Assembly (NCBI GenBank): GCA_973851085.1
Contig: OZ316776.1
Location: forward strand, 4,340,001 to 4,404,000
Origin: Ptychomitrium polyphyllum
Taxonomy: Eukaryota
Length of the DNA: 64,000 nucleotides
Direction of reading: 5' to 3'
In this document: positions 8,261-64,000 of the stretch, piece after piece
How positions within the stretch are numbered: position 1 is the first letter of the stretch
Layout of the letters: each line of letters starts with the position of its first letter
The notes under the pieces: generated by a model
Told to the model about the DNA's origin: nothing
Database searches by the model: none
The model's input: only the letters and a program-made list of their open reading frames with translations
Program-made: the position numbers and the translations under genes

Positions 8261-11200
8261 TCAAGCTCCGTAATCCCCGTCTGCAAATTTCTCCTCAGAA
8301 TAGTAGACAGCAACAACAGAGTTCCCACCAAATCTACGCCCATGAAGTGATGATTTTGCTTTCGCGGCCCCTGCTGTGTCAGAATACTCAACAAAAACCT
8401 GAAATGTCAACAAATCAACAAATCAGCAACAAATCAGTTAGTCTAACAATGCATTACAGTTAAAGAATACAACTACGAGGAAAATGAAACACAGTAAGCA
8501 GTATAAAAATGTAAGAAAAGGTAGATAGAACTAAAAATAGATGGAGACGGTTATCACAAAAGTATGGTATTAAATAAACAATCCCGACAAACAGGGGTAA
8601 CGTTGACAAAAGTAACAAACCTTGCCAACGCCAGGAACATCTTCACCACCTCTCGGTCTAGGAATAACAATCCCCATAAGATTACCTGAAAAGCACAACT
8701 TGAGATCAATTTTAAAATGGCATAAAGAACTTTAGAGAAGACAAGCAAAGCAATTTAACGAACAGTGCTTTCATTACGAGAGCCAGGTCAGTAATTGCAT
8801 AGAATACATACCGTACTTCCCACATTCTTCCTTCATATCTTCCAAGATATCTTGATACTCTTCGTCATCTTTCAATTCCTCTGGTGATACAACCTGTTCA
8901 AAAATTCCTGTGTCTTGAAACTGATAGGAGAACCAAAAAAACCTTGAAATGAAGTCAAATTCCAGACTTTTTGAAACTCCTGATATATAGACGGTTGACT
9001 GTCTTTCAAGATGCAGCTACTCACAACAATACTTCAACAAATACCTCACCTGAGTCAAAGCAACCACTTTGGTGGGCGTTTCAAGAGGGGACATTCCTCC
9101 CATGCCAGGCATCATACCAGCCATCATTGGAAGCCCAGGGAAACCCATGCCACCTAATGCAACAGCATTGGCACCACTCGCTTGCAAAGCAAGTTTCTGC
9201 ATACAACTTAAAATTGTTAAATGACAGACAGAAATCAATTTATTACGAAGATGCAATACCGAACTGCAGTCAAGTAAATAGAATACGAAGCAAAGATGAA
9301 CTAAAACATACCTGGATAGCGATTTGATGTTGAGCTTGAGCCAGCACATTTGCTTGATCAGGCTTTGGTTGTCCACTGCAACATAACAACATCCATGAAT
9401 GAGACACAGTTCTAGCAATGCCAAGATGTCAAGGCCAGCATCTGCTCTCATCTCAAGAATCTGAGATGACAATAGAACAAAACTGAAAAACGTGCAGAAC
9501 CTATTTCTCTAGTCGATCTAATTCCTCCAAGCATGTGAATTAAGATTCGTTGAGTCAAAAACATGTAGATAAGTACCAAACATAGAAGAGCTCTATGCTA
9601 GAGCTATAAGTTAGTAAATGATGTTTCTTTTGTGAAGGATAACTATTGCGAGCATGGAGACTAGTTTCCTTCACGTGTAAATGGGCTAAAGCCAACCTTG
9701 CAGTGGCCCGACGAACGTTTAATGTCTTGTCATCCATTTTCATGCCATTAAGCGTTGCACAGGCAATATCCACAACTGATGGGTCCTGTGAAAGGGGAGA
9801 GAGCGGGGCACACAGCCATACAGACGGATAGAGTGAGAAAGATTAAACCAAACTCTCTACCTGGCAGAAGCGCGACGCACGCTTAGAGTCTTATCACCCA
9901 TTTTCAACCCATTAAGTGCACCTATAGCAACGTCTGTAACAGCTGGGTCCTGCGAGATAAGTAATTTGTCACAGCTCACAGGTTATCAAAGAGCAGAACC
10001 AATCTTGGCCATGCAGAAACATCCCGACTTAATGACAAAACAAAAGTGTATTGTTCAAGATAGTTGCACATTCCTACCATTCTTGAGTAAAACACAGCTC
10101 AAGAAACATGATCAATCTGACATATGAGAAGCATTAATACCTGATACACGCAGAAACCATACCCTTTGGAGTTCCCTGTGTCCCGGTCTTTGACAAGATC
10201 AAAACCTCTCAGAGGCCTACAGTTCCAAAAAACTGGTTTAGGCTGAGTTAATGTATAACTTGGAACATCGTATATCATTAAAACTGAACGCATTTGAGAT
10301 AAAGTCTAAAACAAGAGACTCAAGTGAAACATTTGCAAGCTGACTTCTCACCCAAATGACTCGAGCAACTCCTTAATTTGAACCTCTGTCAAGTAATATG
10401 GCAAGCCTCCAACAAAGATACGATCAGGCCCATCCGCACCTCCCGCAGCACTCCTGGAATCCCCCATTATTATTAAAATCTCTTGGCCACCAGAAACAAG
10501 ATCACTAGGAGGAAAAATTTCAACATCTATGTTCAATAAGGAGAAAAGAATTTGGAATGTATAAAACCAACAATAGAAAATACAACGATAGAATCACAGC
10601 TAAACAAGTCGTTCCAATACTTGTATCAATCGATTCCCAAGAACATGTTATGCATTATAGTTGGTGAAATTATGCATCACCATATTAATATGCCTAACAA
10701 CAGACAGAATCCTAAACTAAAAGTTAATGCGCTAAGGATGCATTCCTACAAATTGTAAGCAGCTTACCCAGGGGTTAACCCAACTGCAGCCAAATTCAAA
10801 TGAGGACTAGGTTGACTTGGACCAAGAGTAGCAGCCATAGATGGATTGTAATCACTTGGTCTCCTCACTCGCACAGATACACCCTACAAAGACAGACAAG
10901 GAAACTATGTCACTTTTCAAATAGATTCTAGAGGGTAACAATTTCTACAGAACAGTAGTATCAGATAGATATATCACGTGAGCTCCACAGGAAACGTACC
11001 AAGATAATGACTAAAACCACCAAAATAAAGAGAAACTGAGCGCAGTTAAAAACTGGTACAAACCTCAAACATAATTCCATCAAGGGCCATCGCGTTGCTG
11101 GCTTCTTCAACAGTCCGCATCTCAACAAATGCAAATTTCTTTTCTTGATTGATGTAAACGTTCACAACAGCATCACCTGGACCAAAACCACATTAATCAG

Positions 11201-14200
11201 GATATCGCACATTGACAAAGCGCTAGAAAAAAACTTGATGTGATCTGGCGCTCAGCTCTGCTAATTCCTTCTTGACTAGCGTCAACGTCAATGAGAGGTT
11301 TTCGAAATGAGTTACAACAGCGCAAATAATGATTGTACAAGCAGCGGACCTGGACCAGCAGTATTGCCTCCAACAGCAGCCATCACCTGACTAAAGTAAG
11401 TTGCGATTGTCTGCACCACACAAAGCAAACACAGTGAACTACTGAAGACGTGCAACTATTATCAATTCAAATATCTGTCTACTTATGATGCAGTAGAAAT
11501 GTTCTATTGAAGGCTCACACAGGTCGAATGGCTTGCATGAGCTCAAACATCAAAATACGACCTCAAATGCCAAATATGAAGGCAGATTTACACCTTATAA
11601 TAGGTCAACAAGATTGAGCATAAATCACACTAGCTATGACACTCCAAACAAAGAGCAGATGTACAGACGTTGTATAAAATCCAGGATATCTATGCATTCG
11701 TATGTCGTGTAAGATGATTTTACCCACCTGTTCATTCGCCATAGGTGGTAGGCCGCCAACATACACTCGACGAGCATGCCTCGTAGCCTACAAAGTAATC
11801 GCCAGAAAATCAGGTCTATAACCAGACTTCAATATATAACCATCCTCCTATCTTAAACCGCTCTCTCTGAAGGGTAGAGTCTTGGCAGCTCAATCAAAAT
11901 GGCAGGCCACCACCTCTAACACAGCTTGTTACAAAAACGTTACTCAGCAAGAAGCATAATCACCTGTTGAGTCATGGCTTGTGCTGGCATTCCAGGAATA
12001 CCTCCAAACTGCTAAACCACCAAACAAGTCAATTATAATATGAACCAAAGGGCTCATCAAACCATACATATAGCGAATACATACAATCACTGTACTCAAG
12101 TCAAACTTTGAAAAACTGCACAAAACAAGCTAAGCACGTACCTGTGTCCCGCCAAATGGGAACATCCCTGGAAATACTCCAGGCATGGGTTGTGACATCC
12201 CAGGAATTTGACCTGAAAGGCGTAACAGAAATTTCGTGAGACTACAGGGACCGGATATATCATGACATTCTTTGTGAACCCAAAATTTGAAGGAAAAGAG
12301 AGAGACAACAGTCCATGTCATCTAGTCCAAATATTACAAAATTAAGATCATATTAAAGGATTAAAACAACATCCACCACTGTCAAGATTGCTGTTCTTAA
12401 ATCTACAGAGTCATCAGCTATGATAGTTTAAAGTATATACACATACTTTGGCAGGTTATATGCACTGACACTGAAAAAGCTAAACGTCATCACGTAGGAT
12501 TCTGAATGGAATAATCACTGTTTACGTCCAGAACCACTTTCAATAGTGTTTTGTAGGTTCTCAAATGACAAGTACTCCATACCAAATTTGTGAATCATAT
12601 TAAGCTTCATAGATTGATAACCACCAAATGCATTTGCTCAGATGAACTGAAGCAGCAAATATTAACCAACACCAAGGTAATCCATCACTTCCTTGTTGAT
12701 AAATCACACCTTAGCAGGGACCCTATGCGCTTCATGGAGAGGGCACAGGGCTCGATTGATGCCTTTCGCAACCACGAAGCATACAAAGACAACCACAGAC
12801 AAACAAACAACAAGGAAACAACAACCAAACACCAAAGCACAGACTTCCTCAGTTCCAAATCAAAATTCTGTCCGACAATACTCACAATTTTAATAGCGAA
12901 AAAGACAAAAATAAAGAGAAGTACAACCTATCAAGCAAGCTAAATGAATACAACCAGTCGAATTTTCTATTGTCCACGTGGATAATTGATACCAAAAGCC
13001 ACTGTATTATAGACATTCTACAAATATGTAACACTCAGGATTAATATAAGCTAAACATCGTCCATTTCAGTTCATTTATCATTTGAGCAACAGCCTACAA
13101 AGCCTATAGAGAAACAAACACATGAGCAATATACTTGAAGTTCATTTAGTGCATTTGTCAATTGAAACGTCACATCATCATAATGTCCATACAAACCTGG
13201 TATTCCAGCACCGGGAACAATAGCTGCACCAGGTGGAGCCATGTCAAATCCACTTGTTTTCCTACAAAAAGAAGCACGCAACTACTTGTGAGCACTAATA
13301 CTGCTAGAAAGGGCGCACCATAAATCCACCTTGAAGACAACATCGAAGACAGAGCAAATGCTCTATTTCAATACACTTTCAAGTGCCAGCCATGGAACTA
13401 TATTATGATTGCCAACCGTTAACAGCTAGCTGCCCAGACAACCGCCTGATCAGAAACATAGCCTCAAATCCAGAGGCATGCCGGTGCTCGACATTGCATT
13501 AGCTTGAAAATCCCAAAGTACTAATAGTAACAACTGGCTGAAACCTTCTTGATCGAGATGGAGATCTTGAACGAGATCTGGATCTAGAGTAATCCCGCGA
13601 TCGCCCTTGAGAACCAGATCGAGATCGATGTCGATGCCTCCTGTCTCGGTCACCTCTGTCATAATCACGACTGCGTCTGCATTTGTAACACAATATGATT
13701 TCAATAATATGACACATAGACCACAACCAAGAGGTTAAAATATAAAGACAGCCTGTCAAAATAGATGAGGACCAAGTGTCAATGACCTGCAAAAATAATG
13801 AATTAGAAACTCTTTACCTCCAAAGTTATGGCTGTAACAGTCTGCATGAAATGAAAATCAGAGTTCAGCAAAACATTACAAAACAAGACGCTTACCTTTC
13901 CCTATCATGGCTGCGGTGACGCTCGCGGTCCCGGTCCCTGTCCCTGTCTCTATCCCTATCTCCTCTGTCTATTTCACGATTTAAATCAAAATGTCGATGG
14001 CGACGATCTTTTCCCCTGTCACGATCTCTCTCTCGATCCCTGTCCCGGCTCCTTTCTCCGTCTCTATCAGATTCTCGAGAGCCACGCTGCAATGCACACA
14101 CTTAATGACATGTAAGACGAATTCTTTGAAAATTTACAGCTATTGTGATGTGCAAGGATCGAAATATGTTCATACAGGACTAGCTAATAAAAATGGACCT

Positions 14201-15388
14201 AGAACTACGCAACACAACACCTTACGATCAAAGGAATCCTACCAATAAAAGAAGGTGAGGGGTAGACCTCTTCACTGTGTATGAACACATGAGAAACTGC
14301 AAAACGAGGACGCCAGATAAAAACTTCGCCAGACAAGAAGGTTTCAAGAGAACACAACGGACAGTGCTCACCACCACTACTCAACACTAAGCTCAAATTC
14401 TCAACGTGTACAGTCCATTACACCAAGTGACACTACGTCAGATTTACCATCACATTCAAGCATTAATGTGATAGAGCCATCTACATGGTGATCATGTAAT
14501 AGTCGTAGATGTGGAGGATAAGGCATCCCTCCGTCAACCTTTTCTCAACATCAGTGCTCTTTAACCGGAATCCTTCCGAACTACGCACATGAAGGAAACA
14601 CCAAAAGCAACAAACATGTCCATTAAAATACAGAATCGGTCAAAATAAACTAGACCGCAAACAGAAAAATGCTGTACCTTACATTCGAATGTTTTCGTCA
14701 CCTACGTAGTCGATACTACCACCTAAGAAATATGCATTTCAGAGTGTACGTGTAAGACGCTGAATATTGCGACCATGTGGTAAACACAGCTCGCAGGTTT
14801 CCTGAATTTTGAACCACAGAGTATCGTCTTCACAAAAAAAAACTTACATTGTTTACAAGGTTACTTAATAAATTAATCATCCGCTCCAGAGGCAAACAAA
14901 GGATATCCGTCACCTTCTCACTCCCTACCAGAGTTCAAGAGTCGCCAAACGATTGTCCTCGATCAGCTGCTCGATGTGCTAACCATTGCCGAGCGCGACA
15001 CAGAAAAAGTGTCCGCCAGTGATTATAGCCAAAAACATCGAAATTGTAGCACAACGTCATGCACAAAATTTAGACAACAAAACGCCAATTCTATCGAAAT
15101 CGCCACCAATAGCCTACTCCACAACAAGAGCCACAGGACCTCAGACGCAACCAAGCGAAAATATAACTCGACGACATCTACCTCCCGCTGAGCTTCTCAA
15201 AGAACTCAGACCGATTGCTCCACATCCGACGCTCATCTCACACGACCTGACACGGCGACCTAAACCAACACCTCGGAGTAGGACTAGGATCATACCTCCC
15301 GCCGCCTCTCGCCGTTGTACTCCCCGTTGTAAGAGCGGGGCGGAGGCGAGTGGCCATACTCATACGGGCCCCCTTCGTCGTCTGCCAT
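8261..15388 (-). CDS. U2AF65: Splicing factor U2AF large subunit (RS domain, RRM1, RRM2, UHM)
   Basis: ATG at 15388 (MADDEGGPYEYGH...), RD/RS exons, then KTSGFDMAPP, ATRHARRVYVGGLPP, EKKFAFVEMR, DRIFVGGLPYYLTEVQIKELLESFG, DLVKDRDTGNSKGYGFCVY and VGKVFVEY...GRRFGGNSVVAVYYSEEKFADGDYGA*. Stop codon at 8261-8263. Confidence 0.97.
9697..9785 (-). other. U2AF65: U2AF65 RRM2 alternative exon B (89 nt), paralogue of exon A
   Basis: cag|GAC CCA TCA ... GCA AG|gttggc; encodes DPSVVDIACATLNGMKMDDKTLNVRRATA(S). Confidence 0.85.
9861..9949 (-). other. U2AF65: U2AF65 RRM2 alternative exon A (89 nt)
   Basis: cag|GAC CCA GCT ... GCC AG|gtagag; encodes DPAVTDVAIGALNGLKMGDKTLSVRRASA(S). Confidence 0.85.
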
Positions 15389-33435: not shown

Positions 33436-36400
33436 TGACGAGAGGCGATAATGTGACGCATCGTAGAATCACAGCGTCGAGAGGTCTCCGGACTGCAACG
33501 TACAGCACATGTTTATGGGTGCGACGTGAGGAAACCAGTCCTAGAGGATGACAGCATTGAAGGAGCAGAGTGAGACTGAAGATGCTGATTGATGCGAGTA
33601 AATCATGTGCAACGCACGCAAAGACCCATTCTCTTGCAAACCGACTCAGAGCATTGAGAGCGTCTGCTCGGATGGAGTGAGTCCATCGTCTCATCTCTGG
33701 TAAATGCAGCAGAGTTACTATTCCCTACACCGGCGACAGGGGCCGGTGACGTCCACAACTCAAACTCGAGGAAAGCCCAGTATGCTCGAAAACCGCCAAG
33801 AAGAGTGATACCAACCGCTTCGCCCTTCGAACGGCTGGGTACGTCAGCTACATCATATCCAGTGTGTACCTCATCATGCAGTCCAGAGGCATGTCTCCAG
33901 CCGGTCTGACAGGATTTACGATCGACCACAGAGAAATCGCCCGAATGAGCGCTGAGTTGTTCAGCACTAGACCTTGCCCTTGAGTTTCTTGCGAGTCGAC
34001 GTGGGAACTGACTCCACCATCACCTGCACATCAGTTCCGAATGTCACCGAGGTTTCACACGATCGCGTCCAAACCGTCGCCCGAGAACTGAATCGAAACA
34101 AGTACGAGTCGGCCGGGTTTATGTTCGAGGCCATCAGCAGCCCAGCGCTTTCACTCCGCATCTGTTACCTCGATGGGACGATGCAAGGGGGATGGGTCAC
34201 TTGAGCCAGTATCGAAGTTGTTTGGGAGCATGCTTACTCTTCCATCGTAGTCCACGCTTGCGAAGACCCACGGATCTAGTGCGCTCCATGCAATCCCTGC
34301 CACTCACAACCACCAAACCTCCGCTACTTCAGACGATGAACTTTGCTTCAGAGAAGCTACTGTCATTGACGACCTATAGCAGTCCAGCTAAAGTTGCTTT
34401 CAGTGCCGTGGCCCATGTTCGGGCGGACTGGCACTACTTTCTTGCACATCTCCGCCTCGACTGGCCGCCCGGATCATAAGCAACCTCGGGGTCCGTCCGT
34501 TACACCGCATATCGAAATTCACAAGACGAGCGTACCGTAGACACTGTCTTCGTGCTCGGTGTAGGAGCGCAACAGAGAGTCCACAGAGCCTCTCGGTAAT
34601 CCAGAAGGACTGCAAGGTTCACAGACGACCAGAGTCTGTCAGATTCCATTCACATGTTTATGGGTGCGACGTGACGAAACCAGAGGAAAGGGAGCGGACT
34701 CTGAAGTATATACCTCTTCGGTAGCGATGCATCGGCAATGCGCCACAGATTCACTACTGCATCTGTTCCTGAGCTCTGCCCAAAGGACGCACAGGGCCAA
34801 TCATGCGCAGATACAAATGACCAGACTCATAATATGCGAAACGTGGAGTCCACGACGACACTACCCGACATCTAAACGGACCCAGCACACTGCACGAATT
34901 CCAAGTACATGTGGAGGCCAGCTAGTACCAGAATCAGCTCCTCGAACTTCGGATTGTATTTGACTCTTACTGCCCTGCAACAAATGCCAGAGGTGAACGC
35001 GTGAGGACTCGCTCTCCATGCAGTGTCCTCCACCGACGAGTTCTTCTCGCTGCAAAGTCTGCATGAGGAGCAGGCCACGCGTGTCTACACTACGTGCTCT
35101 TAGCTGCCTTGAAATGTGTAAGTCCACCATATCACACGCACGGAGAAGCACAAAACACGACTGTACTACAGCACTCCTCTCCGCGGACGCGACACCGAAA
35201 GGAATCGTGTAGTCACACCCAGGCTGGCCTTCAAGCCAAGAGGTTCAGATGCCCCCTTACCAGTGGTGGTGTCCGTGCAGATTGTCCAGAGGACCGCTCG
35301 GCTTCCTCAGATCCCAGACACGGATCCAGGAGTCATCCCCTGCGGTTGCCTGCTCCACCTTAATGCCAAATCTTTCAGAAGCCAAAACTTCGTAGCAATA
35401 GCCTCTACGCCTACACTGTTCGCTACTAGAGTCACAAATCGAGAAAAACGACCCTGATCGTACAAGGGGCGTGGGGAGAACGTGGACCGTACAATGGTGT
35501 ACTTCTTCTGAGGGTTGAAATCGATGTGGCGAGTCTGAAGAGCATGCGCCTGATCGATTACAGCCGAGGAACTGCAGACCCAAACCAAACCAACAGTCGC
35601 ATGTCAGTGCGTAAGGAGGGACCCCGTCACGCTTCTGCATCCAGAACGGATACCAGACTGCCCCGCGGTATTGCCACTACATCCACAGCTTGCGGATTCT
35701 GGAGTGTGGTATGGGAACCTAACCCCTCTGTTCCGTGCTTCGAACCTGCATCCCATGGCTGGCCCTAGCACAACGAGTACCCCTGGTCCACTCCTCACTT
35801 CACGCCAGTTCAGGAGTACCTTGCTTGCGAATCTGGTGGTCCTTGGCATGCACCCACCCACCTCGTCCCACGAGCAGGAGGCGAAGAATTACCTCATAGA
35901 CCGCAGGTCCCAGCAGTGGATCGATCCCTCGGAGGCCGTTGCTATGCTGTTCACGTCGTGGGGATCCCAGGCCCCCACCTCCAAGCGATTGCGTTCCCCG
36001 GCTGACGCCTGCAGGGTAGGATGGAAAGGGAAACCGTCAGATCTGCTGCATACCCTGCTTCAACATTCATCGCAAAACGGTCGATCTTCACAACACCAAC
36101 AGCAACGGCCACACGCGCACGACATTCGTGCCCGTACAGAACCGTCCGTCCAAGACAAAGAAAAGGGAAGCGAGGCACACATGAGGCGAAGCAAAGCACT
36201 CAACGAGGAAAAAATACGCCAAATGTTGCACTGCTCTGAGGCGCTCGAATCTCAGCCACTTGTGACGCAGGTTTAGGGGGAATACGGACCTGTGACGTGT
36301 TCCGTGGAGAGTCGACGTTCCAAACCACGATCTTCTCCGTTCCTATGCTTGCGACTTGTGGATGACGACCGGATGGCCACCAGAGTGTACTGCAGTCAAG

Positions 36401-39400
36401 CCACAGGTACGCAGGACTTAGCAGGTGAGACATCGCGCTCCGGCTCTCGTTGCAACCCCCGCTACTTCGTACAGCACTGCCCTGGCCACTCGCTGGTTAC
36501 CTCGTCGCTGAGATACACTACCAGCGGCAGCTCTCAGCAGATGGGTAGTTCATCGTCCATGCTTTCTAACCATGATGAAATTGAACGCACCGAACGTGGG
36601 TGGGAGCAATTATTGACCGAACGTGATGGAGAAGCCTTACTCTCAGAAGAACCGGTAGCTGAGCGAACCAATCTGTGAGCCCGGCCTGGAGCTCACGGAC
36701 CTTCACACGGTTGCCCGAAAGAATCGGATTTCCTTTCACAGCACACTAAAGAGACCTAAATCCGCGTTTTCATAGCAGCTCGCACCTCTCACGACTTTCT
36801 GTAGTCAGATCACCACATACCACTTCCAGTGCTGCGCTACACCTGGCAAGGAGGCGGCCATCTCCACTGGCAAAGCAGCACCTCTATTTCCTCGAGATTC
36901 AGGTATCTTCCACACAGCTGTTCCTGTTTCCCCGACTGCCATGACACAGAAAACCACGCAACCATCATCAAGCCAGTGCGGTGCGTGTGCTCTGACCTCG
37001 TAACTCGCAAATCCGCCACCCAGGACCCGAAAGGCGACCAATTTCTCGGTACCCGCTCATCACACATCCCTGGCCCTCCCCTTCCCGGTCAGGCTCGGGC
37101 GGTTAGGGCCATCCTCACGAGCCAGCAACATTAAGCTTTTCACCGACAAACATGAGCAATCACAGTCCTCGACTCTTCAGCAGCGATACCATCTTGTGTG
37201 CCCGCTGTACGGTCAACACAGCTGCGGAGTCCCAAGAAGGCAGGCCAAATTCAAGGGTGGATCACATGGGGTGTCGGAGCGAACGCCAGAGGAGCGCAGC
37301 GCAGGCCGCTGCTCATTCTGATGGCTCGCCCCAGTGATGTTACCTGAGGAGTAAACCGTCGTGAAGAGTGACTTGTCGAACGGGCAGGCTGCGAGGTCCC
37401 ACATCTCATCACGGTGTGTGTACAATCCTCGACGGACCAACGCGGACGAGTTTTCTCCCAGCTCCAGCACATGAACCTGCGTGGTTCCCACAGAGCTGCA
37501 CCTCAGATGGCTCGTCATGAGATGCACCTAAATCGACCAATGCGAAATGCGCGAATGGGACCGGCTGTGACACTCGACCCACCGCGATCTGCGGCCCTTC
37601 GTTCCCTCCAGCATCACCATCGACGAGCTAAGCATTAATCTCTGCAGCCGAGTGGCAAGGAGACTGACCTCATTCTCGTACCGTAAGCTCAGGGTGCCAA
37701 CCAGCCACCGGTTGCTCTCCGTGTCCGCCGTTTGCGCCGAGATGCACCTTGCCTGAACAGAAGCAACACCACACGCGCCTCAGAAGCCACGGCCATCGAA
37801 ACCCCAAATGCAAAAGGACGCGGACGCAGTCGCATTTGTCAGTACGTGAACATTTCGCTCGAAAATCGCAGAGACTTCGAAACCCGCGCCGCACCGATCC
37901 AGGACTGGTTGAGGATCGTTGGCGGCGACACTACGCGATCACCTACACCTCTCGGCTGACCACCGCGGATCACACTGTCGGGAAGGAATCAATGCATCCA
38001 TTTCAACATCGACACCGGCTCGACAGCAGGGCCAAGAGCTATAACTCCACGTCTGGAGCACTCGTGGCTGCGATGCGCGTTGTTTGGGTGCGCGGAACGG
38101 CGTTCCGCACGATCGCCGGACGCGTGCGCGCACTCCCAGTCACACGATCCCGGCGGATGACAGGTTTCCGCGGTTGCGACAACTCGAGCCCAACCAGGCT
38201 CTCCGTTTCCGCAGGCGCTGTAGATCCATGGGACCATCTTGTCCGGCACAACCCAGTTCCCCACTTCACCTGATGCTTAAGGCCGTACGAAATCGCGCTT
38301 GGGTGCGGCGCCTGCATCCTGCCTCGAAGTTGATGCTGCCTCGATCGACGATCACACCCACCAACAACTCCGGCCTCGTCCACAGCCCGAACCGCGGCGC
38401 CCGCTGCCCGCCTCGCTCCGCTCCTCGACAGCACTCAGCCGCGCGTGCAAAATTCGCTCATCGGGTCGCCGAAACCACTTGTGCCAACTCACCACTTGCA
38501 GGCTTCCCCCTCCCTCCCCCCTCCATCCCCTCCCCGAAAGCCGCTCCCCGCGCGACTAGAGACCAGACCTCGCGCAGACCACACGCAAGCGTAAGCGCAC
38601 ACAATCGCCGGTATCTTCTTGGCCCGCAACGTTCCGGCACCAGATGCCACAGCAGCCTACGCCATGGCCGCCGAAGCAGACCGAGAATCACACTCAGTGC
38701 TCCGCTGCTTCGCGATCGGGAACCCCGTCGATACGGAAGCTTCGGCTCTTCGGCCAAAGCATCGGCCGGAATCGCAGCCGAGACTACTCGCCCATGAGCG
38801 ATCACCGTGCCGAGCAACTCGGCTGCGAAGGGCATGAAGGCTGTCGCAACACTGTCCCCGACACCCACGCAGACGCAGACGCGGAGACGCGGACTCTGAC
38901 GCTGACTGCGGCTGAGGCAGTTGGGAGGCTTTCGGAGGGCATTCGCCATCGCGCGATGCGGATTGCCACTCTGGTGCCGTGCAATGGACGCAGCCACGAC
39001 GAGCACTTGCCGTTCTGTGGGATACCATGGCGTTTCGCTCGCTTGCCAAGCGTGCAGCGTGAGTTCGAGGTCGCAGCCACAAGTTCGACTTCGGAGAAAC
39101 CCGACGTCGCTCTGCTTTTCTCTGCTCTCGCGTCTCGTTTCGTCTCGTCTCTGCCATTCTCTCTTGGTTCTCAGCGCTCACTACTTGGTTCTGCACCCAC
39201 GATTGCCACATCCGCGGGGCCCATACTAGGACTGTGCCGACCATTCCCGTCGTCCCAGGGGTCGCTGATCGCTGGGGATCCAGTTCCGTGAGCGACAGGG
39301 GATGCAGCCCGACGACGGGGGGATTCTCTGGTTGCCTGAGACCCTGTGTGTTTGTGGCGTTGCGAGGGCAAGAGGAGCTGCGGAAGCTGAACGTCAATGC

Positions 39401-39658
39401 GTTTGTGTGGGTGATCAAATGTCCCCATCAAATACAGCAAGATGTGTCGACGACGCGACGTCAAGAATAGTGCTCGCTTTATTGAACCAGCAAATGCTCA
39501 TGAGGACGGCTGCAGCAAAGTTACCTTTGCTTGCATCCGATGCAAAGGAGGGAAGAGACCTCTCCAGGAAAACAGTAATTGATCCAAGTCCAATCAAACA
39601 ATGGAGATGATGCAGTACATTATTCTGTACAAATGATGTTTCCGTGGACGATGCTGAC
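33436..39658 (-). repeat. Left arm of a large inverted repeat (minimum extent; probably continues leftward)
   Basis: Position x pairs with 97436-x. ORFs in 33603-39610 have mirror ORFs with the same translation in 57826-63833, apart from one residue. Confidence 0.97.
33967..38317 (-). CDS. DWA2: WD40 protein DWA2/EIPR1(TSSC1)-like, copy 1
   Basis: Spliced product: MQAPHPSAISYGLKHQ|ARCISAQTAD...GTLSLRYENE|VHVLEL...HRDEMWDLAACPFD...|...GAWDPHDVN...WDLRSM|...WDLRKP...GHHHW|AVRVKYNPKFEELIL|SSGTDAVVNLW...|...HEDSVY|GIAWSALDPWVFASVDYDGR|VMVESVPTSTRKKLKGKV*. Canonical splice sites. Confidence 0.9.
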
Positions 39659-40137
39659 AGGGTATATGGTTGGTGGGAGTGAAGATCTCATGACGGAGTT
39701 GTGTATATTACAACTTACTCATTGGGTGCCGTCGCCATTAGGCTTGTTATGGATGTATTGTTAGCTTCATCAAACATTAGGGAACTAGCTTAGAGATGAG
39801 GCAGCTGGTGAGCCTTTTGCATTGAAGAGAAGTGCTCTGAGGAAACAAGCAATTGTCTAGGCCCAGTGTTGACAAGCCTTGGGGTCTTTAAACACTCAAT
39901 ATCACTAGCATAAATTTACATGGGAGAGCTCTTTTGATTCGACTATCTCCGAAATTCTGCAGTGCAGGTTGAGCTCTAGAAATTTCTCGGTTTTAGTCCG
40001 CATAGAACCTGTTGCAGGTTTGGACATTTTGAACCCCACTGCTGTCGTTGTGAAGGTGAAATCTACAAATATGTCAAGTGAAGGCATCATTTGCATTAAA
40101 GGGCAGTCTTGACTTGAAGTAAGTGCTGAAGCCAGCA

Positions 40138-57501: not shown

Positions 57502-57777
57502 TACTCCACTACCCGTTCATGATTTCCATCAAACTTGCACCATTCAAGTATTTAAGCAAACCATAAAATCAACCTCAACCGAATCTCCCATGTCTTGAAA
57601 TTAACAAGTACCCTGACCGAAGTGCAGGCAAGGCTCCCTTTCAATAGAGCTGATTAGACCCGACATACAAGACGACTTCCCTGCACAAGAGCCTATGGCT
57701 GGTGACACCAAAGTCTCCATATGAGGATCAACAGCTCGAAAAGGCAAAGCATAGAACTACTAACGCCCATCTCTCCC

Positions 57778-60700
57778 GTCAGCATCGTCCACGGAAACAT
57801 CATTTGTACAGAATAATGTACTGCATCATCTCCATTGTTTGATTGGACTTGGATCAATTACTGTTTTCCTGGAGAGGTCTCTTCCCTCCTTTGCATCGGA
57901 TGCAAGCAAAGGTAACTTTGCTGCAGCCGTCCTCATGAGCATTTGCTGGTTCAATAAAGCGAGCACTATTCTTGACGTCGCGTCGTCGACACATCTTGCT
58001 GTATTTGATGGGGACATTTGATCACCCACACAAACGCATTGACGTTCAGCTTCCGCAGCTCCTCTTGCCCTCGCAACGCCACAAACACACAGGGTCTCAG
58101 GCAACCAGAGAATCCCCCCGTCGTCGGGCTGCATCCCCTGTCGCTCACGGAACTGGATCCCCAGCGATCAGCGACCCCTGGGACGACGGGAATGGTCGGC
58201 ACAGTCCTAGTATGGGCCCCGCGGATGTGGCAATCGTGGGTGCAGAACCAAGTAGTGAGCGCTGAGAACCAAGAGAGAATGGCAGAGACGAGACGAAACG
58301 AGACGCGAGAGCAGAGAAAAGCAGAGCGACGTCGGGTTTCTCCGAAGTCGAACTTGTGGCTGCGACCTCGAACTCACGCTGCACGCTTGGCAAGCGAGCG
58401 AAACGCCATGGTATCCCACAGAACGGCAAGTGCTCGTCGTGGCTGCGTCCATTGCACGGCACCAGAGTGGCAATCCGCATCGCGCGATGGCGAATGCCCT
58501 CCGAAAGCCTCCCAACTGCCTCAGCCGCAGTCAGCGTCAGAGTCCGCGTCTCCGCGTCTGCGTCTGCGTGGGTGTCGGGGACAGTGTTGCGACAGCCTTC
58601 ATGCCCTTCGCAGCCGAGTTGCTCGGCACGGTGATCGCTCATGGGCGAGTAGTCTCGGCTGCGATTCCGGCCGATGCTTTGGCCGAAGAGCCGAAGCTTC
58701 CGTATCGACGGGGTTCCCGATCGCGAAGCAGCGGAGCACTGAGTGTGATTCTCGGTCTGCTTCGGCGGCCATGGCGTAGGCTGCTGTGGCATCTGGTGCC
58801 GGAACGTTGCGGGCCAAGAAGATACCGGCGATTGTGTGCGCTTACGCTTGCGTGTGGTCTGCGCGAGGTCTGGTCTCTAGTCGCGCGGGGAGCGGCTTTC
58901 GGGGAGGGGATGGAGGGGGGAGGGAGGGGGAAGCCTGCAAGTGGTGAGTTGGCACAAGTGGTTTCGGCGACCCGATGAGCGAATTTTGCACGCGCGGCTG
59001 AGTGCTGTCGAGGAGCGGAGCGAGGCGGGCAGCGGGCGCCGCGGTTCGGGCTGTGGACGAGGCCGGAGTTGTTGGTGGGTGTGATCGTCGATCGAGGCAG
59101 CATCAACTTCGAGGCAGGATGCAGGCGCCGCACCCAAGCGCGATTTCGTACGGCCTTAAGCATCAGGTGAAGTGGGGAACTGGGTTGTGCCGGACAAGAT
59201 GGTCCCATGGATCTACAGCGCCTGCGGAAACGGAGAGCCTGGTTGGGCTCGAGTTGTCGCAACCGCGGAAACCTGTCATCCGCCGGGATCGTGTGACTGG
59301 GAGTGCGCGCACGCGTCCGGCGATCGTGCGGAACGCCGTTCCGCGCACCCAAACAACGCGCATCGCAGCCACGAGTGCTCCAGACGTGGAGTTATAGCTC
59401 TTGGCCCTGCTGTCGAGCCGGTGTCGATGTTGAAATGGATGCATTGATTCCTTCCCGACAGTGTGATCCGCGGTGGTCAGCCGAGAGGTGTAGGTGATCG
59501 CGTAGTGTCGCCGCCAACGATCCTCAACCAGTCCTGGATCGGTGCGGCGCGGGTTTCGAAGTCTCTGCGATTTTCGAGCGAAATGTTCACGTACTGACAA
59601 ATGCGACTGCGTCCGCGTCCTTTTGCATTTGGGGTTTCGATGGCCGTGGCTTCTGAGGCGCGTGTGGTGTTGCTTCTGTTCAGGCAAGGTGCATCTCGGC
59701 GCAAACGGCGGACACGGAGAGCAACCGGTGGCTGGTTGGCACCCTGAGCTTACGGTACGAGAATGAGGTCAGTCTCCTTGCCACTCGGCTGCAGAGATTA
59801 ATGCTTAGCTCGTCGATGGTGATGCTGGAGGGAACGAAGGGCCGCAGATCGCGGTGGGTCGAGTGTCACAGCCGGTCCCATTCGCGCATTTCGCATTGGT
59901 CGATTTAGGTGCATCTCATGACGAGCCATCTGAGGTGCAGCTCTGTGGGAACCACGCAGGTTCATGTGCTGGAGCTGGGAGAAAACTCGTCCGCGTTGGT
60001 CCGTCGAGGATTGTACACACACCGTGATGAGATGTGGGACCTCGCAGCCTGCCCGTTCGACAAGTCACTCTTCACGACGGTTTACTCCTCAGGTAACATC
60101 ACTGGGGCGAGCCATCAGAATGAGCAGCGGCCTGCGCTGCGCTCCTCTGGCGTTCGCTCCGACACCCCATGTGATCCACCCTTGAATTTGGCCTGCCTTC
60201 TTGGGACTCCGCAGCTGTGTTGACCGTACAGCGGGCACACAAGATGGTATCGCTGCTGAAGAGTCGAGGACTGTGATTGCTCATGTTTGTCGGTGAAAAG
60301 CTTAATGTTGCTGGCTCGTGAGGATGGCCCTAACCGCCCGAGCCTGACCGGGAAGGGGAGGGCCAGGGATGTGTGATGAGCGGGTACCGAGAAATTGGTC
60401 GCCTTTCGGGTCCTGGGTGGCGGATTTGCGAGTTACGAGGTCAGAGCACACGCACCGCACTGGCTTGATGATGGTTGCGTGGTTTTCTGTGTCATGGCAG
60501 TCGGGGAAACAGGAACAGCTGTGTGGAAGATACCTGAATCTCGAGGAAATAGAGGTGCTGCTTTGCCAGTGGAGATGGCCGCCTCCTTGCCAGGTGTAGC
60601 GCAGCACTGGAAGTGGTATGTGGTGATCTGACTACAGAAAGTCGTGAGAGGTGCGAGCTGCTATGAAAACGCGGATTTAGGTCTCTTTAGTGTGCTGTGA

Positions 60701-63700
60701 AAGGAAATCCGATTCTTTCGGGCAACCGTGTGAAGGTCCGTGAGCTCCAGGCCGGGCTCACAGATTGGTTCGCTCAGCTACCGGTTCTTCTGAGAGTAAG
60801 GCTTCTCCATCACGTTCGGTCAATAATTGCTCCCACCCACGTTCGGTGCGTTCAATTTCATCATGGTTAGAAAGCATGGACGATGAACTACCCATCTGCT
60901 GAGAGCTGCCGCTGGTAGTGTATCTCAGCGACGAGGTAACCAGCGAGTGGCCAGGGCAGTGCTGTACGAAGTAGCGGGGGTTGCAACGAGAGCCGGAGCG
61001 CGATGTCTCACCTGCTAAGTCCTGCGTACCTGTGGCTTGACTGCAGTACACTCTGGTGGCCATCCGGTCGTCATCCACAAGTCGCAAGCATAGGAACGGA
61101 GAAGATCGTGGTTTGGAACGTCGACTCTCCACGGAACACGTCACAGGTCCGTATTCCCCCTAAACCTGCGTCACAAGTGGCTGAGATTCGAGCGCCTCAG
61201 AGCAGTGCAACATTTGGCGTATTTTTTCCTCGTTGAGTGCTTTGCTTCGCCTCATGTGTGCCTCGCTTCCCTTTTCTTTGTCTTGGACGGACGGTTCTGT
61301 ACGGGCACGAATGTCGTGCGCGTGTGGCCGTTGCTGTTGGTGTTGTGAAGATCGACCGTTTTGCGATGAATGTTGAAGCAGGGTATGCAGCAGATCTGAC
61401 GGTTTCCCTTTCCATCCTACCCTGCAGGCGTCAGCCGGGGAACGCAATCGCTTGGAGGTGGGGGCCTGGGATCCCCACGACGTGAACAGCATAGCAACGG
61501 CCTCCGAGGGATCGATCCACTGCTGGGACCTGCGGTCTATGAGGTAATTCTTCGCCTCCTGCTCGTGGGACGAGGTGGGTGGGTGCATGCCAAGGACCAC
61601 CAGATTCGCAAGCAAGGTACTCCTGAACTGGCGTGAAGTGAGGAGTGGACCAGGGGTACTCGTTGTGCTAGGGCCAGCCATGGGATGCAGGTTCGAAGCA
61701 CGGAACAGAGGGGTTAGGTTCCCATACCACACTCCAGAATCCGCAAGCTGTGGATGTAGTGGCAATACCGCGGGGCAGTCTGGTATCCGTTCTGGATGCA
61801 GAAGCGTGACGGGGTCCCTCCTTACGCACTGACATGCGACTGTTGGTTTGGTTTGGGTCTGCAGTTCCTCGGCTGTAATCGATCAGGCGCATGCTCTTCA
61901 GACTCGCCACATCGATTTCAACCCTCAGAAGAAGTACACCATTGTACGGTCCACGTTCTCCCCACGCCCCTTGTACGATCAGGGTCGTTTTTCTCGATTT
62001 GTGACTCTAGTAGCGAACAGTGTAGGCGTAGAGGCTATTGCTACGAAGTTTTGGCTTCTGAAAGATTTGGCATTAAGGTGGAGCAGGCAACCGCAGGGGA
62101 TGACTCCTGGATCCGTGTCTGGGATCTGAGGAAGCCGAGCGGTCCTCTGGACAATCTGCACGGACACCACCACTGGTAAGGGGGCATCTGAACCTCTTGG
62201 CTTGAAGGCCAGCCTGGGTGTGACTACACGATTCCTTTCGGTGTCGCGTCCGCGGAGAGGAGTGCTGTAGTACAGTCGTGTTTTGTGCTTCTCCGTGCGT
62301 GTGATATGGTGGACTTACACATTTCAAGGCAGCTAAGAGCACGTAGTGTAGACACGCGTGGCCTGCTCCTCATGCAGACTTTGCAGCGAGAAGAACTCGT
62401 CGGTGGAGGACACTGCATGGAGAGCGAGTCCTCACGCGTTCACCTCTGGCATTTGTTGCAGGGCAGTAAGAGTCAAATACAATCCGAAGTTCGAGGAGCT
62501 GATTCTGGTACTAGCTGGCCTCCACATGTACTTGGAATTCGTGCAGTGTGCTGGGTCCGTTTAGATGTCGGGTAGTGTCGTCGTGGACTCCACGTTTCGC
62601 ATATTATGAGTCTGGTCATTTGTATCTGCGCATGATTGGCCCTGTGCGTCCTTTGGGCAGAGCTCAGGAACAGATGCAGTAGTGAATCTGTGGCGCATTG
62701 CCGATGCATCGCTACCGAAGAGGTATATACTTCAGAGTCCGCTCCCTTTCCTCTGGTTTCGTCACGTCGCACCCATAAACATGTGAATGGAATCTGACAG
62801 ACTCTGGTCGTCTGTGAACCTTGCAGTCCTTCTGGATTACCGAGAGGCTCTGTGGACTCTCTGTTGCGCTCCTACACCGAGCACGAAGACAGTGTCTACG
62901 GTACGCTCGTCTTGTGAATTTCGATATGCGGTGTAACGGACGGACCCCGAGGTTGCTTATGATCCGGGCGGCCAGTCGAGGCGGAGATGTGCAAGAAAGT
63001 AGTGCCAGTCCGCCCGAACATGGGCCACGGCACTGAAAGCAACTTTAGCTGGACTGCTATAGGTCGTCAATGACAGTAGCTTCTCTGAAGCAAAGTTCAT
63101 CGTCTGAAGTAGCGGAGGTTTGGTGGTTGTGAGTGGCAGGGATTGCATGGAGCGCACTAGATCCGTGGGTCTTCGGAAGCGTGGACTACGATGGAAGAGT
63201 AAGCATGCTCCCAAACAACTTCGATACTGGCTCAAGTGACCCATCCCCCTTGCATCGTCCCATCGAGGTAACAGATGCGGAGTGAAAGCGCTGGGCTGCT
63301 GATGGCCTCGAACATAAACCCGGCCGACTCGTACTTGTTTCGATTCAGTTCTCGGGCGACGGTTTGGACGCGATCGTGTGAAACCTCGGTGACATTCGGA
63401 ACTGATGTGCAGGTGATGGTGGAGTCAGTTCCCACGTCGACTCGCAAGAAACTCAAGGGCAAGGTCTAGTGCTGAACAACTCAGCGCTCATTCGGGCGAT
63501 TTCTCTGTGGTCGATCGTAAATCCTGTCAGACCGGCTGGAGACATGCCTCTGGACTGCATGATGAGGTACACACTGGATATGATGTAGCTGACGTACCCA
63601 GCCGTTCGAAGGGCGAAGCGGTTGGTATCACTCTTCTTGGCGGTTTTCGAGCATACTGGGCTTTCCTCGAGTTTGAGTTGTGGACGTCACCGGCCCCTGT

Positions 63701-64000
63701 CGCCGGTGTAGGGAATAGTAACTCTGCTGCATTTACCAGAGATGAGACGATGGACTCACTCCATCCGAGCAGACGCTCTCAATGCTCTGAGTCGGTTTGC
63801 AAGAGAATGGGTCTTTGCGTGCGTTGCACATGATTTACTCGCATCAATCAGCATCTTCAGTCTCACTCTGCTCCTTCAATGCTGTCATCCTCTAGGACTG
63901 GTTTCCTCACGTCGCACCCATAAACATGTGCTGTACGTTGCAGTCCGGAGACCTCTCGACGCTGTGATTCTACGATGCGTCACATTATCGCCTCTCGTCA
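57778..64000 (+). repeat. Right arm of the large inverted repeat; runs off the end of the window
   Basis: Reverse complement of 33436-39658. Identity starts abruptly at GTCAGCATCGTCCACGG (57778). Confidence 0.97.
59119..63469 (+). CDS. DWA2: WD40 protein DWA2/EIPR1(TSSC1)-like, copy 2
   Basis: Mirror of copy 1 and intact. Differs at 63176 (GGA, Gly) versus 34260 (GCA, Ala) in PWVF[A/G]S. Confidence 0.9.

What the first reader, a model, noticed from the sequence alone, without database searches (positions are those of the whole stretch)
9697..9949. Tandem duplicated, probably mutually exclusive exons in RRM2 of U2AF65
Seen: two 89-nt exons, both with cag|GAC...AG|gt borders and the same phase, encode paralogous peptides (DPAVTDVAIGALNGLKMGDKTLSVRRASA and DPSVVDIACATLNGMKMDDKTLNVRRATA). 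Both are open and many nucleotide differences are synonymous. Including both or neither shifts the frame, since 89 is not a multiple of 3. The 75-nt intron between them (9786-9860) has no AG from about nt 9 until the acceptor. Its branch-point-like motifs (TTTAAT, CTCAC) lie only ~14-28 nt from the donor. Known: a branch point too close to the upstream donor is an established way to enforce mutually exclusive splicing. RRM1-RRM2 of U2AF65 bind the polypyrimidine tract. Vertebrate U2AF35 has a mutually exclusive exon pair, and such exons are considered rare in plants. Inference: this gene makes two U2AF65 isoforms with different RRM2 C-terminal halves, a possible switch in 3' splice-site selection.
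Basis: partly seen in the sequence, partly recalled or inferred. Interest (0 to 1): 0.88.

Follow-up and report, generated by a model that had tools for sequence, protein, structure and literature searches.

The report
Ancient twin exons in moss U2AF65
A moss gene for the core splicing factor U2AF65 carries two side-by-side copies of one exon that related mosses splice in one at a time, giving two proteins that differ in the second RNA-binding domain; the pair likely predates the split of mosses, liverworts and hornworts and may tune which splice sites are chosen.

Summary
Exons A (9949-9861) and B (9785-9697), 89 nt each on the minus strand of a moss U2AF65 gene, each give an open frame; both or neither gives an early stop. 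Spliced contigs of related organisms join the flanking exons to A or to B; 0 of 4 runs in the narrow look showed A-B or skip-both joints. Physcomitrium RefSeq already models both isoforms of one locus. A second moss contig keeps the 75-nt intron at 84% identity, with the CTCAC motif 25-27 nt from the donor. Peptide B is 28/29 identical in liverworts and a hornwort; two read-through proteins, one in a Sphagnum cluster, hold a decayed B. New lead: the intron can pair 14 bp with exon A's 5' end, with one compensatory change. The deeply conserved A/B differences lie on helix alpha2 and the hairpin turn, not the main RNA face, so a switch in 3' splice-site choice is untested. Branch point unmapped; no RNA from the window's own organism. 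Not found described in six paper searches nor earlier in this scan. New member of a known kind, parallel to vertebrate U2AF1.

The parts
8261..15388 (-). U2AF65 (U2AF large subunit) gene: RS region, RRM1, RRM2, UHM; likely orthologue of the Physcomitrium locus with isoforms P0038 (A) and P0020 (B)
   Evidence: Exon model and translation; first ATG at 15388; joints of relatives' contigs match the modelled introns; human U2AF65 structures hit by P0038 at E 2e-54
10141..10216 (-). Constitutive upstream exon (76 nt; carries RNP1 of RRM2)
   Evidence: Joined to A (9948/10140) and to B (9784/10140)
9965..9980 (-). 16-nt motif conserved upstream of the exon A acceptor (15 of 16 identical in L003); holds a GTGAC branch-like motif; function inferred only
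   Evidence: Alignment
9861..9949 (-). Exon A (89 nt): helix alpha2, hairpin and beta4 of RRM2, equivalent to human D309-V337; vascular-plant-like variant
   Evidence: 80 of 89 nt identical in L003, 7 synonymous and 1 nonsynonymous codon changes
9786..9860 (-). 75-nt intron between the twin exons, shortest of the 17 modelled introns; same length and 63 of 75 nt identical in L003
9833..9837 (-). Candidate distant branch point CTCAC (A at 9834: 27 nt from the A donor, 49 nt from the intron end); predicted, not mapped
   Evidence: Conserved in L003 at nt 22-26; no branch-like motif 17-40 nt from the acceptor
9813..9831 (-). Conserved intron element predicted to pair with exon A nt 5-19 (9945-9931; 14 bp, one bulge) and with the exon A donor (5 bp)
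   Evidence: same register in both species, U-A to C-G change at 9938/9819; best 16-nt helix reached by 0 of 60 and 1 of 60 shuffles
9697..9785 (-). Exon B (89 nt): paralogous variant with Thr at 319 and Asp at 326 (human numbering)
   Evidence: 84 of 89 nt identical in L003, 5 synonymous and 0 nonsynonymous changes; 29/29 aa in Physcomitrium and Ceratodon, 28/29 in Marchantia, Riccia fluitans, Nothoceros
9312..9375 (-). Constitutive downstream exon (64 nt)
   Evidence: Joined to A (9375/9861) and to B (9375/9697)

Best explanation
This is a tandem-duplicated exon pair in RRM2 of a moss U2AF65 gene that related mosses splice in one at a time, giving two equal-length proteins that differ at 10 residues; exclusion is likely enforced by a branch point only 27 nt from the exon A donor, with frameshift and decay as a likely backup. 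Shown: anatomy, frames, both sets of joints in relatives, conservation of both peptides and of the intervening intron. Inferred: (1) once U2 sits on the CTCAC branch point, U1 cannot use the A donor, so A and B are not joined (about 55-60% likely the main device); (2) a predicted 14-bp helix between the intron and exon A's 5' end, stacked on a short helix over A's donor, would hide exon A and bias the choice towards B (about 35-40% real); (3) the pair arose before mosses, liverworts and hornworts split (about 80%) and B decayed in Sphagnum; (4) the proteins differ in function, more likely through the alpha2 face and hairpin turn (RRM1-RRM2 open/closed balance or a partner contact) than through base specificity (untested).
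For: Joints (runs X4-X7; four organisms, three studies): upstream-A in 3 of 4 runs, A-downstream in 3 of 4, upstream-B in 3 of 4, B-downstream in 4 of 4, A-B and skip-both in 0 of 4. One 1731-nt contig of X6 runs upstream-A-downstream with 76 and 64 nt sides and 0-2 differences per exon; near-identical contigs of X5 and X7 run B-downstream with 57-nt sides. A second paralogue shows both an A-like and a B-like exon joined to the same neighbours in X6 and X7 (loose ends and pieces). Physcomitrium isoforms X1 (A) and X2 (B), both 560 aa, are identical at 346 of 346 compared residues outside the segment and 20 of 29 inside. L003 holds A, a 75-nt intron and B; that intron is 84% identical against 46-60% for six neighbouring introns. 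It has 2 (window) and 1 (L003) adenosines in the last 43-4 nt against 4-13 in the other 16 introns. In a tree built without the segment, one liverwort orthogroup (99/99) mixes B-annotated (Marchantia, R. fluitans) and A-annotated genes (R. sorocarpa, Calypogeia), the two Riccia being sisters (97/81). Tails of read-through proteins P0109 and P0029 match exon B (0 of 2000 shuffles each; 2 of 9 tails tested). A 5' splice site to branch point limit of about 50 nt is cited for OGDH in PMC7969005 (passages).
Against: No RNA of the window's own organism was laid; the runs are relatives (5-8% of words) and their RNA status is a guess. Contigs drop rare forms and decay would remove A-B products, so their absence does not show a steric block. 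In X4 the A joints have sides of only 26 and 28 nt, under the tool's 31-nt bridging standard, and the X5 upstream-A joint belongs to a divergent paralogue. 4 of 16 other introns also lack a branch-like motif 17-40 nt from the acceptor. The 50-nt limit comes from animals. The helix rests on two sequences; the region as a whole folds no better than shuffles (z 0.64 and -1.10), whole-exon duplex energies are not significant, and in the window the register is lost when exon B is added to the fold. No liverwort or hornwort genomic DNA was seen. All Sphagnum isoforms tabulated are A-type, so B is dispensable in at least one moss lineage.
Confidence: 0.78

Rival explanations
1. Exclusion is only apparent: the 75-nt intron is spliced normally, and A+B or skip-both transcripts are made but destroyed by nonsense-mediated decay, as for vertebrate U2AF1.
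For: Both forms carry early stops with several introns downstream. U2AF1 transcripts with both or neither 67-nt exon are downregulated by decay (PMC5224494, passage). Contigs cannot show rare forms.
Against: Decay alone does not explain why the intron keeps its length, CTCAC motif and A-poor middle at 84% identity.
Confidence: 0.22
2. The two isoforms do the same job; the pair is kept as an RNA-level device (dosage or feedback control of U2AF65), and B's protein conservation is a by-product of constraint on its RNA.
For: B is more conserved in nucleotides than the constitutive exons (84 of 89 against 445 of 532, Fisher p 0.006). Sphagnum seems to have lost B. Human G326 is solvent-exposed and does not touch RNA (PMC7408900, passage).
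Against: All 5 changes in B between window and L003 are synonymous. B is 28/29 identical between moss and liverwort or hornwort while the rest of the protein is 84-87% identical. Thr319, Met323 and Asp326 occur together in 15 of 163 tallied proteins, the named ones all bryophyte (isoforms counted separately).
Confidence: 0.2
3. The tandem pair is a moss feature; liverworts and hornworts have a single exon, and their B-like or A-like peptides reflect lineage sorting, conversion or convergence.
For: No liverwort or hornwort genomic DNA was obtained, and no single liverwort or hornwort gene was seen with both isoforms.
Against: Sister Riccia orthologues carry different types (22 of 29 alike inside, 328 of 352 outside), while R. 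fluitans and Marchantia B are 29 of 29 alike. A hornwort transcript reads on after B with RLA, as the window does at its unusual GTTGGC donor.
Confidence: 0.15
4. One exon is a dead duplicate or an assembly artefact.
For: None beyond the lack of RNA from the window's own organism.
Against: Both exons are spliced in relatives, both are open and under purifying selection, and an independent contig has the same layout.
Confidence: 0.02

Closest known systems
Vertebrate U2AF1 (U2AF35) tandem exons 3 and Ab
   Same: Duplicated tandem exons of equal length not divisible by three in a U2AF subunit; both or neither leads to stops; few residue changes in an RRM-type fold (PMC5224494 passages); isoforms differ in splice-site preference (PMC6821156 abstract); isoform separation after gene duplication is known (PMC4494069 passages).
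   Different: Other subunit (65 kDa), other domain (RRM2, not the UHM), other kingdom, so an independent origin; 89 against 67 nt; here the exons are only 75 nt apart, which allows a steric block.
Distant-branch-point steric exclusion (OGDH exons 4a/4b; the alpha-tropomyosin prototype is recalled, from no call)
   Same: Candidate branch point 25-27 nt from the upstream donor, long AG-free zone, intron length frozen in evolution; OGDH branch points lie 25-41 nt from the donor (PMC7969005 passages).
   Different: Branch point here is predicted only; the intron is far shorter and in a plant; a predicted helix with the upstream exon lies between branch point and pyrimidine tract.
Physcomitrium patens RefSeq U2AF large subunit isoforms X1-X5 (for example XP_024385755.1 B-type, XP_024385756.1 A-type)
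   Same: The same two peptides as alternative isoforms of one locus.
   Different: Automated models only; two plant U2AF65 family papers have no occurrence of 'mutually' in main text or held supplements.
RNA-structure-controlled exon choice (beta-tropomyosin exon 6B, Dscam docking sites; recalled, from no call)
   Same: An intron element complementary to one alternative exon could hide it.
   Different: Only one helix, supported by two sequences and one compensatory pair; a competing helix with exon B was not supported (pairing probability about 0.01 or less).

Membership tests
Mutually exclusive homologous (tandem-duplicated) exons | Adjacent exons of shared origin, same phase and length | tested here: met
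   89 nt each, 62 of 89 identical, same phase
Mutually exclusive homologous (tandem-duplicated) exons | Each exon is spliced to both flanking constitutive exons | tested here: met
   All four joints in relatives' contigs and in Physcomitrium isoforms; not in the window's own organism
Mutually exclusive homologous (tandem-duplicated) exons | Both-in and both-out forms absent or rare | tested here: inconclusive
   0 of 4 runs list such joints, but contigs drop rare forms
Mutually exclusive homologous (tandem-duplicated) exons | Both exons under purifying selection | tested here: met
   A: 7 synonymous, 1 nonsynonymous; B: 5 and 0, window against L003; one pair of sequences
Distant-branch-point steric exclusion | Branch point under about 50 nt from the upstream donor | tested here: inconclusive
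   Conserved CTCAC at 27 and 25 nt, no conserved alternative nearer the acceptor; predicted only
Distant-branch-point steric exclusion | Lariat mapped to that adenosine; moving it away allows A-B joining | not testable with these tools
   Needs lariat RT-PCR and minigenes
Distant-branch-point steric exclusion | Long AG-free zone and constrained intron length | tested here: met
   65-nt zone; 75 nt in both species while six neighbouring introns differ by 20-89 nt
RNA-structure-controlled exon choice | Conserved helix with compensatory changes across many species | tested here: inconclusive
   One compensatory pair in two sequences; local helix beats shuffles, whole region does not
U2AF1 exon 3/Ab pair itself | Homology to U2AF35 UHM exons | tested here: not met
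   The gene is U2AF65 and the exons are in RRM2; analogous, not homologous

The most novel reading that the evidence does not exclude
An exon duplication in U2AF65 before land plants split gave an RRM2 switch: B kept algal-like residues and gained Thr319/Asp326, A became the form that vascular plants kept. Bryophytes have held both for over 400 million years (age recalled) with a compact 75-nt device that combines a steric branch point with an exon-hiding helix, and use it to shift U2AF65 between open and closed states and so retune 3' splice-site choice across the transcriptome; Sphagnum and vascular plants lost B, and Physcomitrium paralogues may have split the two forms between genes.
Probability: 0.2. 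Interest if true: 0.82.

Novelty: new member of a known kind. Interest (0 to 1): 0.63.

Why it matters
U2AF65 sits at the first step of 3' splice-site recognition. A deeply conserved either/or exon in its RRM2 gives bryophytes a built-in second version of a core spliceosome part, arrived at independently of the vertebrate U2AF35 pair. It is a small, clean case for testing whether the steric branch-point rule known from animals works in plants, in organisms with easy gene targeting (Physcomitrium, Marchantia), and it comes with natural losses (Sphagnum, probably vascular plants) for comparison. It is tempered by both isoforms already standing in automated Physcomitrium annotation and by no functional difference having been shown.

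Tried and rejected
No whole genome is held for the window. No RNA holder of the window's own organism was listed. The B-specific pattern gave 5 metagenome stretches: L003 genomic, L004 and L005 spliced, L001 and L002 chance matches; 0 in prokaryote genomes and 0 in viral contigs. The intron-element pattern gave one bacterial match, taken as chance and not examined further, so no third copy of the intron was found. A competing helix between the intron element and exon B was considered and dropped: pairing probability about 0.01 or less over the element in both species, and forcing it costs 1.6 and 8.7 kcal/mol. An 8-bp Watson-Crick run alone is not rare (47 of 600 random exon-intron pairs; 33 and 31 of 600 shuffles). 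Nine proteins with two matched stretches were read: eight are whole-RRM duplications or chimeric models, not tandem exons; the ninth is P0029. Among the 97 representatives, the full B signature stands in 2 short read-through fragments of unnamed origin; 8 rows gave no match to the printing pattern. 7 of 9 read-through tails showed no B remnant; one of them (P0026) is open from exon A to the downstream exon. Contig depths were not used as isoform ratios. The AlphaFold model of the B isoform (mean pLDDT 58, 75-85 over the exon) only placed the exon on alpha2, hairpin and beta4; its alignment was mostly non-B, so it says nothing on A/B differences. Two earlier scan notes on other genes were not used; no look-alike stretch was on record.

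Full report
Observation. An 18-exon model from 14086 to 8261 translates without a stop with A alone or B alone; with both, a stop falls inside B; with neither, in the next exon. The first coding exon starts at 15388. The protein is U2AF65, closest to a Physcomitrium patens locus, so the window is taken to be a moss (inference).

Both exons are used. Seven runs guessed to be RNA, all of relatives (5-8% of words), were listed; five were laid (X1, X4-X7; four organisms, three studies). Their contigs skip the modelled introns. In the narrow look (four runs, joint table not cut) upstream-A appears in 3 of 4 runs, A-downstream in 3, upstream-B in 3, B-downstream in 4, A-B and skip-both in none. The strongest rows: a 1731-nt contig of X6 through upstream-A-downstream with 76 and 64 nt sides, and near-identical contigs of X5 and X7 through B-downstream with 57-nt sides. 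X4 shows both forms, A with short sides (26, 28 nt). The upstream-A joint of X5 belongs to a divergent paralogue. A second paralogue in X6 and X7 has an A-like and a B-like exon on the same neighbours. Independently, Physcomitrium RefSeq isoforms X1 (A) and X2 (B) of one locus are both 560 aa and identical at 346 of 346 compared residues outside the segment. Limits: no RNA of the window's organism; contigs give neither ratios nor absence.

Conservation. L003, a genomic metagenome contig, has A, a 75-nt intron and B in the same order. Against the window, A shows 7 synonymous and 1 nonsynonymous codon changes, B 5 and 0; two spliced contigs (L004, L005) carry a B identical to L003's. Peptide B is 29/29 in Physcomitrium and Ceratodon and 28/29 in Marchantia, Riccia fluitans and the hornwort Nothoceros, where the rest of the protein is 84-87% alike. 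In a tree of 44 proteins built without the segment, one liverwort orthogroup mixes B-annotated and A-annotated genes, with the two Riccia as sisters; both exons being present and annotation picking one is the simplest reading, but no liverwort DNA was seen. All Sphagnum isoforms tabulated are A-type. Two of nine read-through tails after exon A match B (0 of 2000 shuffles each), starting about 46-48 nt after A and diverging after the first half; one is a member of a Sphagnum fallax cluster. This reads as a decayed B (inference). Lycophyte, fern and seed-plant proteins fetched carry no B signature; the B search had only 32 candidates, so this is weak. B shares Val313, Ile315 and Met323 with charophyte sequences such as Coleochaete, while A shares Thr313, Val315 and Leu323 with lycophytes and ferns, which allows an origin before vascular plants split; 29 residues cannot settle it.

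How exclusion may work. The intervening intron is the shortest of 17 and is 84% identical in L003 against 46-60% for six neighbours. CTCAC is kept, its A 27 and 25 nt from the donor; between nt 33 and 71 each species has one A, at different places. 12 of 16 other introns have a branch-like motif 17-40 nt from the acceptor; this one has none, as do 4 others. Human OGDH exclusion uses branch points 25-41 nt from the donor, under a proposed limit of about 50 nt (PMC7969005, passages). A steric block is therefore the best-supported device, with decay as backup; neither was tested. The best 16-nt helix (-18.8 and -21.1 kcal/mol) is reached by 0 of 60 and 1 of 60 shuffles, and five of the six register pairs checked have probability about 1 when A and the intron are folded alone; against it, the region's overall z-scores are 0.64 and -1.10 and the register is lost in the window, not in L003, when B is added. 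It is a lead.

What the isoforms change. Aligned to human structures (numbering fixed by Y152, F262 and F304 named in PMC7408900), the exon is D309-V337: alpha2, the hairpin and beta4, as the model of the B isoform also shows. A and B differ at 311, 313, 315, 317, 318, 319, 323, 326, 331 and 336. Human K328, K329, L331, Q333, A335 and S336 take part in the first three uridine sites (PMC3616741 passages; PMC4786784 one passage), so the moss differences at 331 and 336 touch them; but liverwort A and B agree at both. The shared differences are 313, 315, 319, 323 and 326. [quoted passage not shown] A change in open/closed balance or in a partner contact is thus more likely than new base specificity; all of this is inference from the human protein.

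Prior knowledge. The type is known: vertebrate U2AF1 has tandem 67-nt exons with decay of both-in and both-out forms (PMC5224494 passages), whose isoforms differ in splice-site preference (PMC6821156 abstract). Six searches (listings only) showed no paper on this pair. Two plant U2AF65 family papers have no 'mutually' in text or held supplements (PMC8635922; PMC12027700); the latter says bryophyte genes are alternatively spliced and refers to a Figure S7 that I could not see and that may draw these isoforms. PMC5336241 and PMC11464654, passages only, added nothing; PMC4494069 (passages) covers isoform separation in vertebrates. Subscription papers are not in the library. That such exons are rare in plants is recalled, not tested.

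Verdict. Real, conserved and expressed in relatives; a new member of a known kind, present in automated annotation but not found described. Interest 0.63.

Noticed in passing
window 12631-12887 (minus strand), inside the 984-nt intron 12213-13196 of the same gene: A U-rich stretch of about 260 nt is 82% identical in L005, a transcript that keeps this intron; an X5 contig runs from the next exon straight into sequence resembling about 12712-12741 (loose end). Looks like a conserved poison exon or retained intron, possibly U2AF65 feedback control.
   Followed up: partly
window 12142-12297: Contigs of X1, X6 and X7 extend the 71-nt exon upstream into the intron: alternative acceptor or retention, at least in a paralogue.
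   Followed up: no
proteins P0068, P0141-P0143, P0017, P0018 against P0003, P0004, P0019, P0010: The second moss paralogue has an A-type exon with one extra codon; of its two Physcomitrium copies one is annotated only with B, the other only with this A form: possible separation of the isoforms after gene duplication.
   Followed up: partly
window 11964-12008: The 45-nt exon before RRM1 is missing from some Physcomitrium isoforms (P0004, P0005): a second, in-frame alternative event.
   Followed up: no
window 9950-10140: Contigs of X1 and X4 cover exon A together with its upstream intron: possibly a slowly removed or retained intron before A.
   Followed up: no
window 9691-9696: The unusual donor of exon B (GTTGGC) is kept in L003, and read-through proteins including a hornwort one continue with RLA.
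   Followed up: partly
window 33436-39662 and 57775-64000: An inverted duplication of at least 6.2 kb, 99.97% identical, running to the window's end: very recent duplication or assembly feature.
   Followed up: no
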